Assembly: GCF_963676685.1 (NCBI RefSeq) | Contig: NC_092351.1 | Location: forward strand, 6,944,001 to 7,008,000 | From: Mytilus edulis | Taxonomy: Eukaryota | Direction of reading: 5' to 3' | Length of the DNA: 64,000 nt | Made by a program: the position numbers | In this document: piece by piece, positions 45,001 to 57,000 of the stretch | Layout of the letters: the number at the start of each line of letters is the position of its first letter | How positions within the stretch are numbered: the stretch's first letter is position 1

Positions 45001-48000
45001 TAAAGATGTCTACATATTCGCAATTCAACAAATTTGCTTAACGTTATGGGACTTTTTCAAATCACACAAAAATGGTAAGGTAGAGTTTTAATTAGCAAAG
45101 AAAAACAAATTTAACATAAAAATACCGCAATCCGGGAAAAATTCTAAACGGAAAATTCCTTAGCAAAAGGCAAAATCAAAAGCCCAAACACCTCAAACGA
45201 ATGGAAAACAGCTGTCATATTCCTGACTTATATATACCAATGTACATTTTAAGCAATGGCAGGTACGATGGGAACAACACAAGGATCCTGATTGGACTAA
45301 ATCTATAAGTTATGAAGATTCTGAGACGGCGAGGAGCACTGATTCTATTACCAGTACAAGTAAAATAATATGGGTGACGCCAGAGAAAGAAGAACTTGAA
45401 ACAGCTAGATCATTATGGGAAAGGGTATACCGATTGTGGTATGAACCTAGAAAAACTATTCCGGATAATAAATTTCAAGAAATGCAGAAATTGACAAAAC
45501 TTTCGATGCCTAAACATGTCAGATTCAAAGGAAATGATAAATGATTTTTTTTATGTTCACAAATATTCCCGACACTATATTAGTTCTGATCTTACCAATG
45601 CATCAACAACTTTGTTTGTACAGTTGTCATATCGTAATGTTGTTTGTTTATTTATTTGTTTGTTTTAATTTATTTTCAGTTTCCTTTAACTATTTATATG
45701 ATAAATATTTGATTTGCATACAATTAATTATGATTTGTTTTATTCGTACTCTTTGTTTTTGAAAAGAACAATCTGTTCATTATTATTTATTCATTTTTTT
45801 CAAAGAAAAAAAAGTTGCAATTTTATTAATTTATTTAAAAACAAAATATTTTACAATTTTAAAATCATACTATCTACTAATATCAAAAACAATCATTGAA
45901 CAGATTCAGTGTCTTGTGTTTTTGTTGCAACGTCATCAAATCTATAATCCTCATTGGTTTTACGTTTTTTACAATTAAGACCAAGTCTTTTACGCTGCCA
46001 ATGTAAGACGAATATTAGGACACAGGTTACACTTATAAAAACAACCAGTACAATCACTACAATCACACCTGAACTTAAGTGACTTTCTATCTTTTTATCT
46101 ATTGAGATGGTACTGACGTCTTTAGAAGCTGAAAATATAATTCGAGAAAATATGTTATTGAAAAAAATAAACCCTTAGACAGAAGAGCAATACAAAATGT
46201 AGTCATATTTAAAATAAATAAAGCAAAACAAATTGAATGGCGATAAAGTTTATGAAATTCATCACAAAATGTAATGCAGTTTTCTAAAAGCAAACCATGA
46301 AGTTGTTGAAGGACACAATAAATAACTCGTCTATTTAGAAGACGTAAACACATAAAACTAACATGTAAATAAAGAAATAAGTGAAGAACAATATCTCAAA
46401 ACAAATAAAAGAAAACACATACATAAAAGCATTTACATTTCATCAATGAAATGAAGATAAAATTGAGAATGGAAATGGGGAATGTGTCAAAGAGACAACA
46501 ACAATACATCTTATACAAAAAAGGTAAATGAACATTAACATACAAGGCAATTGACAAGTGTTAGTAAATGAATGCTGAGTATAATTGCGCTAAGAGCATA
46601 ACATGAAATATATTCACATAGACGTTATAGTGTTTCACAAACCATTAATGGATTTGCCTGTAAGCTAATGCAAGAGACTTAAAGAATTCAGGCCAATTCA
46701 TAAATCAGTCGCCAATAATATGGTGACGCAAATTCATAAGTTGGTGTTATTTTTGTTAATACGTTTTTGTTTATTTGAACGTATTGATGGATACGTATTG
46801 ATGGATCGTAAAATTGAAAAAATAACTAGTTTATATTTGTTTTAAGCATTTTATGACTAGAAACATCAACTAATTTTACATCTATGTATATTGAAGCATT
46901 AGTAATTTCAACGTGATCTGGAAAGGAAATATAAATTGATTATAAAAGCAGAGTGGTGTTAGGGGTGAAACAAGCACTATGCTATTAAATAATATATAGA
47001 TAAAAAGAAAAAAAGAAATTCATTTACAGTATTAATTACATTAGGCAGAGTTGTTAAGTTGTATGCAAAATCTTGCAATTTTTTGTACTAATAAAGAAAA
47101 AAATTCACTTTGTGCTTTACTTTGTTATGTTAAAGTTCACGTCTGTGAAAACGTAAATTTCAATTTAAAACAAATGTCTCTTTAAAACGGATTAAAAAAT
47201 CTTTATGCTTAGTCAGTTCTTATATAATGTCACAGTTGATGAAATCATAAAGTATGAATAAATGGTATTGACTTTCACATTTACAATGAGTATACAGTTA
47301 TACAGGTAGTCATACTTTTATCAACACACAAATCTTATTTTGAACATATAGAATGACATTGAATATTAATTTCACTATTAATTAGATTTGAACCCCTTTG
47401 ACTCATGGATTGGTTACATTTGATTTGTAACATTTATAAAACCTACAACTCGAAATATGTGTTTTTATTTAAAAGAAACGCGCGTCTGACATACGCAACT
47501 ATAACCAGTGGTATCTTTGGTGAAATTTAACATAAATTTTATGAATTAATTGACACAAATATTTGTACTTACTGTCTTCAAAGCATTTATCTAACAAACA
47601 AATAATGAACAATAAACCAGAGTATTATAACAAGTGAGAAGTATGGTTCCTTTTATAGTTCTTTCTTTGAATGACATATAAATTAAAATTTCAGAAGTAT
47701 GTATACAGTGGTTCATCCTTTTTTGTGGAATACCATAAACGGTACCAATTTTTCGTAAAGCTTTGTTTTAGATAATCATAGCTTGTAAAATCCGAAAGTT
47801 ACGTGTTAGTCACTGGTTACGTGTATGGTATTTCTTTAAAGTCTAATCAAATGATTGATAACATAGTTTCTAGAAAAAATATGCAGTAAGCAACTATTTT
47901 CCTTTTTTTGAGGACTGAGTCTGTTAGGTTTCCTGCCGTAGGTCGGTGGTTCATTCTTGACACACCAGTTTACTCCAAAACTAGTTTGACCGTCATGGTA

Positions 48001-54000: not shown

Positions 54001-57000
54001 ATTAAATGACAAAACTACATGACAGGAATACAGTAAAAATAACAAGAACAGTCAGGTCAGAGAAATACACAAGCGAATAATATAATAGATCATTTCGACA
54101 TGTATACCATAGAATAACAACGAACATATAATATTTTTATACGACAGTAGTACCAATTAATACAGCAAAAAGAATTATGGACAGTGCGTCACACGAATGT
54201 ATGTTTGAATGTAATAGTTCTTTGAATAGAACTGTCTTACACTTTAAGGGTGAAATGAGTTGTCATGTCAAGAAAATAAGATGTAACTGACAGTGATAAA
54301 ATCTAGCATAAGTGTGTAAACATTACATTGAAAGCGCATAATGAATATACTCACTTTAATATATAGAATGTAGAATTTCTTTCAACACAATTCAGATGTA
54401 AAGTCTTCCTATTTGGTATAGATGTGTTATATCCAGAGATAGAGGAAGACCCAAAAACCATTGGACCATTATATAGACTTATCCAAACTCCTCGCAATTC
54501 ATCTGGAAAGCTGCAAACGCCATCTACAAAAGAGGGTGTTGACAAGCTTGATTAAAATTGTTTGGTCAGAGTCTTTGTTTGACCCGTCAATATAGTTGTT
54601 CACCATAAAGTATGCCAGTACGTTAAACAAAGCGTTTTATAATGATTAATATCAGTATCAAAGCGTTGACTTATACTCGCTTCGTATGCACATAGTGAAT
54701 AAATAGAATAAAAATCAAAACCCCCAAAACCCCCTCCCCGAAAAACAGTATACATTGATAAGAGGTTAACAAGGAATTGCAAAACAGTACGCGGTAAAGT
54801 AGACGACAAAAAATGTGTTCAATTGTAAACTTACCACAGAATGGTATACTTGTCAAAAGTAGATACGTGCCAAAAATATCAGTTATATCCATGGCAACTT
54901 TTACATGGGAAACACACACACAAACGTTCAAGAATGATTCCGTAATAACTGATTTTTATGAATAACCTAATCATAGCAGTATATCAAAAGAATTTAAAAT
55001 TTCGTTTAACTTCATATGTAGAATGAATCAAGTTATAATTTCAACATATACCCTGTGATGCTCAATTGATTTCAAACAGTAAACAGCTGTTAATTATCCA
55101 CAGAGCCTATAAATATGTTCATTGTATTTTTATATAGGGTATACACACATGCAAATTAAATGTTAACAAATTCACAGTGTAGTGAAGATGCTAATCTTCA
55201 ATGATGGGTTTTGGTAGATGTGATTGAAATTAAAACCTCTAATTATTTTGATAACGTTTATAAGACCTGAATTTAAGTTTATATCAAATTTATGAAGTGT
55301 TTCAATATTGTGAACAATAACATAAAAATGGACTGTAGGTAATAATTTTATCATTATATTCATAATAAATACAAATTGTAATTTATTGATGTAAATGTTT
55401 AAAACCATTAATTTATACACCGATAATGACAAGTCACACACACGCGAAATGTCTGATGTATAAAGACCAATATTTACAGCACTTCGATGTTTTTTTTCAC
55501 AATGACACAATTTTCATTTCACATATCATATTGACATTACTCTCATTGAGAAACACATCTAAATTCTGACGAATGCTTTTTTGCTGTTTAGAAAAATCTG
55601 TCTTTTTATACGATATAAAATCAACTCTTAGTAGATATAGTATGGTCTTTTTGTTACGATATCGAATGGGTTTTAAACCCATATCATCGCCTGCAACAGA
55701 TACATACATTGTATATTGGTTAGTTTAACAGATTACACGGTAGAACACCTCGGCAAAACTTTGTTGAAATCAACCAACTGTGTAACATAATTATAGCTGA
55801 TTACTTCCGTATATTTTCGGATGACGTATACGGTGCAGGAAATGCTTACTCTTCCGGAGCACCTGATTTCACTCCCGGTTTTTAGTGGAGTTCGTGTTGT
55901 TTCTTATTTATTATTTATAACTGTTGATGTAAATGTCCTTTGTTTTTTTTAGTTTTTGTTTACTCCTTGGTTTTGATTGCCATTGTCTTCTCATTGCTCA
56001 AATTTCCTTTAAAGGAATATTGCAAACAATAGAAATTTATTATTTCTAATTTAGTAAATGGTATCGCACAATCAGTCTTTATATGGCAACATGTGACAAA
56101 CACTCCTTTGTCGCGTTTTAAAATAGTGCATTTTATACTTTTTAACATACTCATCAACCTTTGTCAATTGTGTTAAAAATAAGCTTTGAATATTCTTTTT
56201 CTAGCGGTGATAGTTTTGACCAAAACTGTTTTTATACTTAGGCAATCATCCATGATAAATTTTAATTTCACTAAAGCAATAAATGAGTTTGTTACATTTG
56301 AAATATGCCTTTTTGTACTTCTTTGTGAAATATTTGTTTGTTTTTATTGTGATTAAGATGATAACACAATGTTGACAGATGTACCCCTATTTGGACATTT
56401 TTATTAATTATGTCTGTTTGTGTTGATTACGTATCGCTGTCAATATAATGGAATTGATGAGACTGTCGAACAAGTGAGAGGTTTAACTAGCTATTATAAA
56501 CCAGGTTCAATTCACAATTGCTACATAGAAAATGCCTGTACCAAGTCAGGAATAAGACAGTTGTTATCCATTCGTTTAATGTGTTTGAGCTTTTGATTTT
56601 TCCATTTGATTAGGGACTTCATGTTTTGAATTTCCCCCAAAAATCAGTATTTTCATGATTTTACTTTTTTTAGTTACATGGTGTGCTAGTGATTTAAAAT
56701 GCTGTATAATGGGTCATTCCACGGAGTAAGAACGAAGCTCGAGTCCCCATTGTGAATTTACTGACCCCATATATATATATATCGTATAAATCACTGGCAC
56801 ACTATGTAACTAATATATAGTACCGATAATATTAACATATGAGACTTAGACTAGCGGTCTATCGAAGAGATCAAGACTGGAAGTAATAATAATTAACTTC
56901 CATAATGTTTATAATGAAAGTATTGTCTAAGTATAAAAAAAAAACCCACCAACTTGAAATGTGTTTTATGGCTTTATTACAATTGTTCATTATCAATTTC

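What the first reader, a model, noticed from the sequence alone, without database searches (positions are those of the whole stretch)
45893..54892. Convergent pair of divergent paralogs defines a Cys-rich type I membrane protein family hidden from the ORF track
Seen: both genes share the first seven intron phases (1,2,1,1,1,0,1), a signal-peptide exon (TYFLLASLAF / TYLLLTSIPF), a C.FP.ELRG..W start and aligned cysteines through exons 2-7. Otherwise they are very divergent and have unrelated cytoplasmic tails (about 200 aa versus about 35 aa). From memory, the C-x-F-P-x3-G-x-W start and Cys spacing resemble the invertebrate DUF7042-DUF7044 domains of unknown function; this is unverified. A long-tail/short-tail pair suggests a signalling versus decoy or co-receptor arrangement (inference).
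Basis: partly seen in the sequence, partly recalled or inferred. Interest (0 to 1): 0.68.

Follow-up and report, generated by a model that had tools for sequence, protein, structure and literature searches.

The report
Two divergent paralogous membrane glycoprotein genes
Two tail-to-tail genes in an AT-rich, invertebrate-like genome appear to encode distantly related single-pass cell-surface proteins of an uncharacterised family, which is ordinary gene annotation rather than a new kind of system.

Summary
The observation largely holds, but the coordinates 45893-54892 cover only one gene. That is gene B (minus strand, 8 exons, 357 codons). Its partner, gene A (plus strand, 10 exons, 513 codons), runs from 5089 to 45544. 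The two stop codons lie 348 nt apart.

The first seven intron phases are 1,2,1,1,1,0,1 in both models. In A this needs a GC-AG intron and a 27.9-kb intron 3 that holds three antisense GPCR genes.

Only exon 2 is significantly alike by BLASTP (E 2e-8). Exon 5 is alike only in a shuffle test. Exons 3, 4, 6 and 7 share exon phase, near-equal length and cysteine register, not sequence.

Each model has a hydrophobic N-terminus, an ectodomain of about 280 aa with ten shared cysteines, one transmembrane helix and a tail (189 aa versus 36 aa).

Exon 2 of both genes gives sub-threshold Pfam hits to DUF7043, and B's also to DUF7044. There is no hit to DUF7042. Membership is unproven.

All searches were exon by exon. 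Structure prediction and the Atlas were closed. The signalling-versus-decoy idea is untested. Interest is low to moderate.

The parts
5089..5143 (+). Gene A exon 1: ATG and hydrophobic signal-peptide-like N-terminus; followed by a phase 1 intron
   Evidence: Sequence read. Donor gtaagt. Best non-self match in the whole window is B exon 1. Shuffle p 0.001.
6432..6612 (+). Gene A exon 2: start of the ectodomain, C-x-F-P-x-E-L-R-G motif, 2 Cys; followed by a phase 2 intron
   Evidence: Found by the strict splice-site scan. BLASTP to B exon 2 E 2e-8. Pfam DUF7043 E 0.061, below cut-off.
7708..7811 (+). Gene A exon 3: 104 nt, 1 Cys at residue 17; followed by a phase 1 intron
   Evidence: Strict splice scan, acceptor 4.6 and donor 8.9. 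Same length and same Cys position as B exon 3. No BLASTP similarity.
35717..35845 (+). Gene A exon 4: 1 Cys, ends with L-L-V-R as B exon 4 does; followed by a phase 1 intron. It lies 27.9 kb after exon 3.
   Evidence: Strict splice scan. One of 12 phase 1-to-1 candidates in 7812-39377; it tied for second by similarity score and its donor score was the joint highest of the 12. Alignment. No BLASTP similarity.
39378..39539 (+). Gene A exon 5: 3 Cys, C-P start; followed by a phase 1 intron. An in-frame alternative acceptor lies at 39396.
   Evidence: Shuffle z 4.9 against B exon 5. Reciprocal best non-self tblastn hit. BLASTP finds nothing.
41654..41769 (+). Gene A exon 6: 2 Cys; followed by a phase 0 intron, but only with a GC donor (gcaagt at 41770)
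   Evidence: Sequence. Exon table. Cys at residue 6 and at the second-last residue, as in B exon 6.
42199..42313 (+). Gene A exon 7: 1 Cys at residue 18; followed by a phase 1 intron; weak acceptor
   Evidence: V-V, H and C fall in the same positions as in B exon 7. No BLASTP similarity.
42503..42828 (+). Gene A exon 8: last 8 ectodomain residues, transmembrane helix, then 72 aa of lysine-rich tail; followed by a phase 0 intron
   Evidence: Strict splice scan. Maximum 19-residue hydropathy 3.54. Pfam gives only sub-threshold transmembrane or low-complexity hits.
43951..44022 (+). Gene A exon 9: 24 aa of tail; phase 0 on both sides
   Evidence: Strict splice scan, donor 8.4. No counterpart in B.
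45263..45544 (+). Gene A exon 10 (least certain): 93 aa of tail plus the stop at 45542-45544
   Evidence: Longest plus-strand ORF in this stretch. Poor pyrimidine tract before the acceptor. No Pfam or PDB match.
54835..54892 (-). Gene B exon 1: ATG at 54892, hydrophobic signal-peptide-like N-terminus; followed by a phase 1 intron
   Evidence: Sequence. Donor gtaagt. No ATG in the 20 in-frame codons read upstream.
54355..54523 (-). Gene B exon 2: C-x-F-P-x-E-L-R-G motif, 2 Cys, 2 N-x-S/T sites; followed by a phase 2 intron
   Evidence: Pfam DUF7043 E 0.018 and DUF7044 E 0.025, both below cut-off. BLASTP to A exon 2 E 2e-8.
50719..50822 (-). Gene B exon 3: 104 nt, Cys at residue 17; followed by a phase 1 intron
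   Evidence: Strict splice scan, acceptor 3.7 and donor 9.3. Sequence.
49857..49970 (-). Gene B exon 4: 1 Cys, 1 N-x-S/T site; followed by a phase 1 intron
   Evidence: Sequence read. Splice sites tag|...|gtaagt.
49174..49350 (-). Gene B exon 5: 4 Cys (one has no partner in A), 2 N-x-S/T sites; followed by a phase 1 intron
48613..48725 (-). Gene B exon 6: 2 Cys; followed by a phase 0 intron
   Evidence: Strict splice scan..
48130..48232 (-). Gene B exon 7: Cys at residue 18; followed by a phase 1 intron
45893..46128 (-). Gene B exon 8: 19 juxtamembrane residues, transmembrane helix, 36-aa tail, stop at 45895-45893. AATAAA at 45835. An in-frame alternative acceptor lies at 46173.
   Evidence: Hydropathy 3.46.

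Best explanation
These are two real but old and very divergent paralogous genes lying tail to tail. Gene A runs 5089-45544 on the plus strand. Gene B runs 54892-45893 on the minus strand.

Each encodes a single-pass type I membrane glycoprotein with these parts:
- Exon 1 gives a cleavable signal peptide.
- Exons 2-7 and the start of exon 8 give an ectodomain of about 280 aa. Ten positionally conserved cysteines, presumably five disulfides, would hold it together.
- The N-terminal module of the ectodomain resembles the Pfam families DUF7043 and DUF7044.
- Exon 8 gives one transmembrane helix with basic residues on its cytoplasmic side.
- The tails then differ: 189 aa, lysine-rich and low in complexity in A; 36 aa in B.

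The most likely role is a lineage-specific cell-surface binding or recognition protein. The conserved ectodomain scaffold would bind an extracellular partner, and the divergent tails would give different intracellular coupling or sorting.

Shown: exon structure, phases, motif, cysteine register and hydropathy.
Inferred: splicing itself, signal-peptide cleavage, disulfides, glycosylation, surface location and any ligand binding.
For: Gene structure and coding signal:
- Rebuilt models have identical phases 1,2,1,1,1,0,1, open frames, and GT-AG introns in 15 of 16 cases.
- Seven of A's ten exons (exon 5 from its alternative in-frame acceptor) and four of B's eight (exon 8 with an internal donor) came out of a strict splice-site scan that did not use the partner gene.
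- Exon 3 is 104 nt in both genes. Exons 4+5 total 291 nt in both.
- Codon usage of 18 of 18 exons lies above the mean of random stop-free segments. My hand-combined z is about 4.4.
- Over 239 aligned codons, nucleotide identity is 0.42/0.51/0.34 at codon positions 1/2/3, and 36 of 60 identical residues use different codons.

Similarity between A and B:
- Exon 2 is 38% identical over 53 aa by BLASTP, E 2e-8. MAFFT gives 41%.
- Shuffle tests: exon 2 z 11.9, exon 5 z 4.9, exon 1 z 5.1, exon 8 z 4.7.
- In a six-frame search of the whole window, exons 1, 2, 5 and 8 are reciprocal best non-self hits (4 of 8), and no third copy appears.
- Cysteine register in exons 3, 4, 6 and 7: 5 of 5 within 1 residue; 11 of 200,000 shuffles reach this.

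Protein features:
- Hydropathy maxima are 3.54 and 3.46 in the two exon 8 peptides. Both exon 1 peptides are hydrophobic.
- N-x-S/T sites in ectodomain exons: 7 in B and 2 in A.
- Pfam DUF7043 is hit by exon 2 of both genes over profile positions 4-51 of 104.
Against: - There is no transcript evidence of any kind.
- BLASTP finds nothing significant for 6 of 7 exon pairs. Exons 3, 4, 5, 7 and 8 give no cognate match, and exon 6 gives only an off-register 9-residue match at E 0.27.
- Shuffle p values for exons 3, 4, 6 and 7 are only 0.128, 0.104, 0.038 and 0.026.
- The shuffle z values for exons 1 and 8 partly reflect hydrophobic runs, not homology.
- All Pfam hits are below the gathering score. 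Exons 3-7 hit nothing, even at E up to 10.
- Gene A needs a GC donor, weak acceptors at exons 5, 7 and 10, and a 27.9-kb intron holding three other genes.
- Codon-usage scores are individually significant (below 0.05) for only 2 of 18 exons.
- I chose the boundaries of A exons 6 and 7 after seeing B.
- No SignalP or TMHMM-type predictor was available.
Confidence: 0.7

Rival explanations
1. Gene A is not one intact gene. Exons 1-3 (5-8 kb) and exons 4-10 (35.7-45.5 kb) would be separate or decayed pieces, such as a pseudogene or a locus split when the GPCR cluster arrived. Only gene B would be functional.
For: - Intron 3 is 27,905 nt and holds three complete 7tm_1 ORFs on the other strand.
- The donor of intron 6 is GC.
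- Acceptors of exons 5 and 7 score -4.0 and -1.2. The exon 10 acceptor has a poor pyrimidine tract.
- There are no transcripts.
Against: - All ten exons are open in the required frames and total 1542 nt, with the only stop at the end.
- All ten cysteines are kept.
- No spare copies of exons 1-3 or 4-8 exist elsewhere in the window that could complete two separate genes.
- From general knowledge, genes nested in long introns and GC-AG introns with a gcaagt donor are both normal in animals.
Confidence: 0.17
2. Only the N-terminal module (exon 2) is homologous, for example through exon shuffling. The matching phases and cysteines in exons 3-7 would be coincidence combined with biased choice of exon boundaries.
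For: - BLASTP is significant for 1 of 7 exon pairs.
- Identities in exons 3, 6 and 7 are 13-15%.
- I picked A exon 6, exon 7 and partly exon 4 with B in view.
Against: - Exon 5 has shuffle z 4.9 and is a reciprocal best non-self hit.
- The cysteine register test gives 11 of 200,000.
- Exon 3 has identical length and exons 4+5 an identical summed length.
- A exons 3, 4 and 5 were found by splice-site strength alone.
Confidence: 0.08
3. The ectodomain is a very diverged member of a well-characterised extracellular module. One candidate is a MAM-like jellyroll, whose start I recall as C-x-F-E...C-x-W. The other is a zona pellucida module with 4+6 cysteines.
For: - These are leads from recall only.
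- The start motif C-x-F-P-x-E-L-R-G-x-W looks like the MAM start.
- The layout also fits a ZP protein: four cysteines in exons 2-4, six in exons 5-7, then a transmembrane helix and, in B, a short tail.
Against: - No exon hits Pfam MAM or Zona_pellucida at E up to 10.
- No MAM or ZP structure appears among the PDB profile hits for exons 2-7.
- The position of the second MAM cysteine is an arginine in both genes.
- There is no basic R-x-K/R-R cleavage site between the last cysteine and the helix, and A has only about 30 residues there.
Confidence: 0.08
4. This is the first reader's functional reading: the long-tail protein signals, and the short-tail protein acts as its decoy or co-receptor.
For: - Tail lengths are 189 aa versus 36 aa on otherwise collinear ectodomains.
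- The two genes are adjacent.
Against: - Neither tail contains a recognisable signalling domain (Pfam; PDB).
- A's tail is mostly low-complexity lysine and serine.
- The ectodomains share only about 25% identity (60 of 239 aligned residues), which does not suggest a shared ligand.
- Nothing here tests binding.
Confidence: 0.07

Closest known systems
Pfam DUF7043 (PF23070) and DUF7044 (PF23071), domains of unknown function
   Same: - Exon 2 of both genes aligns to the first half of these profiles. The match starts at profile positions 2-5, exactly at the C-x-F-P motif.
- Exons 2+3 together encode 91-95 codons, close to the profile lengths of 94 and 104.
- No function is known for these families. 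Two full-text searches found 0 papers naming them.
   Different: - Scores are 14-16 bits against a cut-off of 27.
- Exon 3, which should carry the second half of the domain, hits nothing.
- DUF7042 is not hit at all.
- Which organisms and architectures define these families is not given by any search here.
MAM domain (meprin / A5 / RPTPmu jellyroll)
   Same: - It is an extracellular module of single-pass receptors. Four cysteines form intramolecular disulfides in neuropilin-1 (PMC5104691, passages read).
- Its start motif, as I recall it, resembles C-x-F-P-x-E-L-R-G-x-W.
   Different: - There is no Pfam MAM hit and no MAM structure in the PDB searches.
- The second cysteine of the recalled motif is an arginine here.
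Zona pellucida (ZP) module proteins
   Same: - The overall layout matches: signal peptide, about 260-280 aa with 4+6 cysteines, a transmembrane helix, and a short tail in B. The ZP layout is from general knowledge.
   Different: - There is no Pfam Zona_pellucida hit on any exon.
- There is no furin-type site, and in A too little sequence between the last cysteine and the membrane.

Membership tests
Pfam DUF7043 / DUF7044 | Score at or above Pfam's gathering cut-off (27 bits) against the family profile | tested here: inconclusive
   - Exon by exon: B exon 2 scores 15.9 bits (DUF7043) and 15.2 bits (DUF7044). A exon 2 scores 14.1 bits (DUF7043).
- Each covers only about half the profile, because the domain would span exons 2+3.
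- The joined peptide was not searched, so the real test was not run.
Pfam DUF7043 / DUF7044 | Second half of the domain present after the first | tested here: not met
   Exon 3 of A and of B gives no family at E up to 10. These peptides are only 34 aa, so power is low.
Pfam DUF7042 | Any match to the profile | tested here: not met
   0 of 16 exon peptides and 0 of 10 stop-to-stop ORFs hit it at E up to 10.
Type I single-pass membrane protein (generic class) | N-terminal signal peptide | tested here: inconclusive
   Both exon 1 peptides are hydrophobic (mean hydropathy 1.76 and 1.14), each with a small residue near the exon 1-2 junction. No signal-peptide predictor was available.
Type I single-pass membrane protein (generic class) | One transmembrane helix near the C-terminus, with basic residues on the cytoplasmic side | tested here: met
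   - The 19-residue hydropathy maxima are 3.54 (A exon 8) and 3.46 (B exon 8). No other exon exceeds 1.8.
- Arg and Lys follow each helix directly.
MAM domain | Match to Pfam MAM and the conserved cysteine pair at the domain start | tested here: not met
   No hit. Arginine sits at the recalled second-cysteine position. No MAM chain appears.
Zona pellucida module | Match to Pfam Zona_pellucida and a basic cleavage site before the membrane anchor | tested here: not met
   No hit. No R-x-K/R-R occurs between the last cysteine and the helix in either exon 7 or exon 8 peptide.

The most novel reading that the evidence does not exclude
The pair defines an unstudied family of invertebrate single-pass receptors. 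Its ectodomain would be a fold not yet solved (DUF7043/DUF7044-like). The long-tail and short-tail paralogs would work together at the membrane. Their tail-to-tail layout, with stops 348 nt apart and A's first AATAAA inside B's last exon, would let overlapping 3' ends regulate each other by antisense.
Probability: 0.08. Interest if true: 0.5.

Novelty: new member of a known kind. Interest (0 to 1): 0.24.

Why it matters
If the models are right, they add two members to a family of animal cell-surface proteins. That family is catalogued only as domains of unknown function, and I found no paper on it.

The pair is a natural comparison: the same cysteine scaffold at about 25% identity, with different tails. 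It could guide a first structural or binding study.

Beyond that it is routine annotation. Nothing here bears on a long-standing open question.

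Tried and rejected
- **Whole-frame translation of the locus for Pfam.** The tool rejected it because of stop codons. I went back to exon references.
- **ESM Atlas.** It was closed for new sequences.
- **Structure prediction of single exons.** The tool was not accepting jobs on three tries, each retry made after the wait it asked for. No fold or Foldseek search was done.
- **Internal repeat.** I tested whether exon 2 is like exon 5, since both have a C..P...G-aromatic start.
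  - Shuffle tests gave 1 of 13 pairs below p 0.02.
  - hhalign probability was 0.3%.
  - I rejected the idea.
- **PDB profile searches for the six exon pairs 2-7.**
  - The best hit was E 0.018 to a TPR protein over 21 residues, taken as chance.
  - The antibody heavy-chain hits had E above 0.1.
- **PDB search with A exon 10.** Nothing at E up to 1.
- **Prokaryote genome scan with the exon 2 alignment.** No relative found.
- **Third family copy in the window.** None found.
- **Rfam and tRNA scans.** Nothing found.
- **Pfam on 15 other long ORFs.**
  - No family met its cut-off.
  - The only hit at E up to 0.01 was a sub-threshold KASH match (17.1 bits against 23) for the ORF at 941-1297.
- **Codon-usage model trained on the three GPCR ORFs.** It discriminates only weakly.
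- **Not checked.** The large protein collections, the metagenome and viral collections, and any eukaryotic genome or transcript data were closed or absent. Family size, taxonomic range, presence or absence and dN/dS therefore stayed unchecked.

Full report
**Scope and rules**

The window has no N and is about 30% G+C throughout. It has short exons and long, repeat-filled introns.

This limits what can be said about domains that span exons.

**Where the two genes are**

The interval in the finding, 45893-54892, therefore holds only one gene, here called B (minus strand). Its partner, A, starts 40 kb away on the plus strand.

I rebuilt both models from the raw sequence. I also ran a splice-site scan that did not use the partner gene.

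| | Gene B | Gene A |
|---|---|---|
| Strand and span | minus, 54892-45893 | plus, 5089-45544 |
| Exons | 8 | 10 |
| Length | 1074 nt: 357 codons plus stop | 1542 nt: 513 codons plus stop |
| Introns | all GT-AG | GT-AG except intron 6, donor gcaagt |

- Every exon is open in its required frame, and the only stop is the last codon.
- Exon 3 is 104 nt in both. Exons 4+5 sum to 291 nt in both.
- The stop codons are 348 nt apart, so the genes are convergent.

**How good the models are**

B is compact, and seven of its seven acceptors and donors look ordinary. A is less secure, for four reasons:
- Phase 0 after exon 6 exists only with the GC donor.
- The acceptors of exons 5, 7 and 10 are weak.
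- Intron 3 is 27,905 nt.
- Exon 10 is simply the longest ORF before the stop.

In favour of the models:
- Seven of A's ten exons (exon 5 from its alternative in-frame acceptor at 39396) and four of B's eight (exon 8 with an internal donor at 46069) appeared among the few candidates of the strict scan. That scan gave 27 frame-exon combinations in 40 kb for A and 11 for B.
- A codon-usage score trained on the three GPCR ORFs puts 18 of 18 exons above the mean of random stop-free segments. Only 2 of 18 are individually below 0.05. Combining the z values by hand gives about 4.4.

No transcript data were available.

**Are they paralogs?**

Exon 2 is clearly homologous:
- BLASTP gives E 2e-8 with 38% identity over 53 residues.
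- MAFFT gives 41% identity with 22 invariant columns, including C-x-F-P-x-E-L-R-G.

For the other six exon pairs BLASTP finds nothing useful. A local-alignment shuffle test gives these results:

| Exon pair | z | p |
|---|---|---|
| 1 | 5.1 | 0.001 |
| 2 | 11.9 | 0 of 2000 |
| 3 | 1.3 | 0.128 |
| 4 | 1.4 | 0.104 |
| 5 | 4.9 | 0 of 2000 |
| 6 | 2.2 | 0.038 |
| 7 | 2.6 | 0.026 |
| 8 | 4.7 | 0.0005 |

The values for exons 1 and 8 are partly an effect of hydrophobic runs.

Further evidence:
- **Six-frame search.** I ran tblastn with all exon peptides against the whole window. Exons 1, 2, 5 and 8 are reciprocal best non-self hits (4 of 8). For exons 3, 4, 6 and 7 the cognate is not found. No third copy exists.
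- **Cysteine register.** What ties exons 3, 4, 6 and 7 together is structure.
  - Anchored at the exon ends and without gaps, 5 of 5 A cysteines fall within one residue of a B cysteine.
  - 11 of 200,000 shuffles reach this.
  - For all six ectodomain exons the figure is 7 of 10, reached by 376 of 200,000 shuffles.
  - I fixed the boundaries of A exons 6 and 7 after seeing B, so this test is somewhat generous.
- **Codon pattern.** Over 239 aligned codons, 60 residues are identical and 36 of those use different codons. Nucleotide identity is 0.42/0.51/0.34 at positions 1/2/3. That is the pattern of old protein-level conservation.

I conclude that the two genes are ancient paralogs over the whole ectodomain, with about 0.8 confidence.

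**What they encode**

- **N-terminus.** Both exon 1 peptides are short and hydrophobic.
- **Membrane anchor.** Both exon 8 peptides hold one strongly hydrophobic stretch (19-residue hydropathy 3.54 and 3.46), followed at once by Arg and Lys. No other exon exceeds 1.8.
- **Ectodomain.** Exons 2-7 carry 10 cysteines in A and 11 in B.
  - B also has one at the end of exon 1.
  - All 10 of A pair with a B cysteine in the per-exon alignments.
- **Glycosylation sites.** Ectodomain exons hold 7 N-x-S/T sites in B and 2 in A.
- **Tails.** The two tails are unrelated.

| | Gene A tail | Gene B tail |
|---|---|---|
| Length | 189 aa: 72 in exon 8, 24 in exon 9, 93 in exon 10 | 36 aa |
| Character | lysine/serine-rich, low complexity | no notable composition |
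| Pfam or PDB match | none | none |

This is the anatomy of a type I membrane glycoprotein. Signal-peptide cleavage, disulfides, glycosylation and surface location are inferred, not shown.

**Comparison with known families**

- **Pfam, exon by exon.**
  - I scanned 9 peptides of A, 7 of B, and 10 stop-to-stop ORFs. Exon 1 of each gene is under 20 aa and was not scanned.
  - Only exon 2 gives a relevant hit. DUF7043 scores E 0.018 for B and 0.061 for A. DUF7044 scores E 0.025 for B only.
  - These are 14-16 bits against a cut-off of 27, over profile positions 2-51 of 94-104.
  - Two independent sequences hit the same half-profile, starting at the C-x-F-P motif. That makes a real relationship plausible; I put it near 0.5.
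  - The second half of the domain would lie in exon 3, which hits nothing. DUF7042 is never hit.
- **Literature.** Full-text searches for the DUF names, Pfam accessions and my recalled InterPro numbers found 0 papers.
- **PDB.** Profile searches with the six exon-pair alignments gave nothing credible.
- **Leads from memory.**
  - Two leads were tested as far as possible and not met: a MAM-like start motif and a zona-pellucida-like 4+6 cysteine layout.
  - There are no Pfam hits for either, and an arginine sits where MAM has its second cysteine.
  - There is no basic cleavage site and, in A, too little sequence before the membrane. The MAM features come from passages of PMC5104691 read.
- **Internal repeat.** An internal repeat between exon 2 and exon 5 was rejected.

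**Function**

The best-supported reading is a lineage-specific cell-surface binding or recognition protein. Its ectodomain scaffold is conserved while its surface and tails have diverged.

Neither tail has a recognisable signalling domain, and the ectodomains share only about 25% identity. I give it about 0.07.

**Surroundings**

- **Nested GPCR genes.**
  - Intron 3 of A holds three complete, intronless rhodopsin-family GPCR ORFs on the minus strand. Pfam 7tm_1 gives E 1e-22 to 2e-26.
  - They are 35-40% identical to each other.
  - Their nearest solved relatives are the cholecystokinin-A and orexin receptors.
- **Dispersed repeat.** A repeat of about 170 nt, 94-95% identical between copies, occurs in A's introns and just before A exon 10.
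- **Poly(A) signals.**
  - B has an AATAAA 58 nt past its stop.
  - A's first plus-strand AATAAA lies inside B's last exon.
  - The 3' ends may therefore overlap, but this is not shown.

**What stayed unchecked**

- No whole-protein domain search, fold or Foldseek search was done.
- Family size, taxonomic spread, presence or absence and dN/dS therefore remain open.

**Verdict**

- The thing itself is an ordinary pair of uncharacterised membrane-protein genes.
- Interest is 0.24.

Noticed in passing
window 12029-13375, 26077-27375, 30953-32365 (all minus strand): Three intronless rhodopsin-family GPCR ORFs (448, 432 and 470 aa) lie inside the putative 27.9-kb intron 3 of gene A, antisense to it. 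Pfam 7tm_1 gives E 1e-22 to 2e-26. They are 35-40% identical to each other. The nearest solved structures are cholecystokinin-A and orexin receptors at E about 1e-17.
   Followed up: partly
window 29701-29871, 33902-34070, 43589-43759; partial copies at 17903-17995 and 45139-45229: A dispersed repeat of about 170 nt, with copies 94-95% identical in both orientations. One copy sits in intron 8 of gene A and one just upstream of A's putative exon 10. ORF fragments with a similar peptide also appear near 6300-6400 and 53800-53990. No tRNA or Rfam match was found.
   Followed up: partly
window 41770-42198: Intron 6 of gene A would be a GC-AG intron with donor gcaagt. No GT donor gives the phase 0 needed to read exon 7 in the cysteine-bearing frame.
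   Followed up: yes
window 45544-45893 and 46166: The two stop codons are 348 nt apart. B has AATAAA 58 nt past its stop (45835). The first plus-strand AATAAA after A's stop lies at 46166, inside B's last exon. The 3' ends may overlap as antisense.
   Followed up: partly
window 8943-9469, 10720-10823, 25629-25794, 61621-61875: Tandem arrays with periods of 44, 22, 20 and 129 nt. The first three lie in intron 3 of gene A.
   Followed up: no
window 49350-49970 and 35717-39539: Exons 4 and 5 differ in length between the genes (129+162 nt against 114+177 nt) but sum to 291 nt in both. The intron position seems to have shifted by 15 nt, or indels have compensated. Separately, A intron 4 and B intron 2 are both 3532 nt, which I take as coincidence.
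   Followed up: no
window 54836-54838 and 49229-49231 (minus strand): Gene B has two cysteines with no partner in A: the last residue of exon 1 and residue 40 of exon 5. If the first survives signal-peptide cleavage, they could form an extra disulfide.
   Followed up: no
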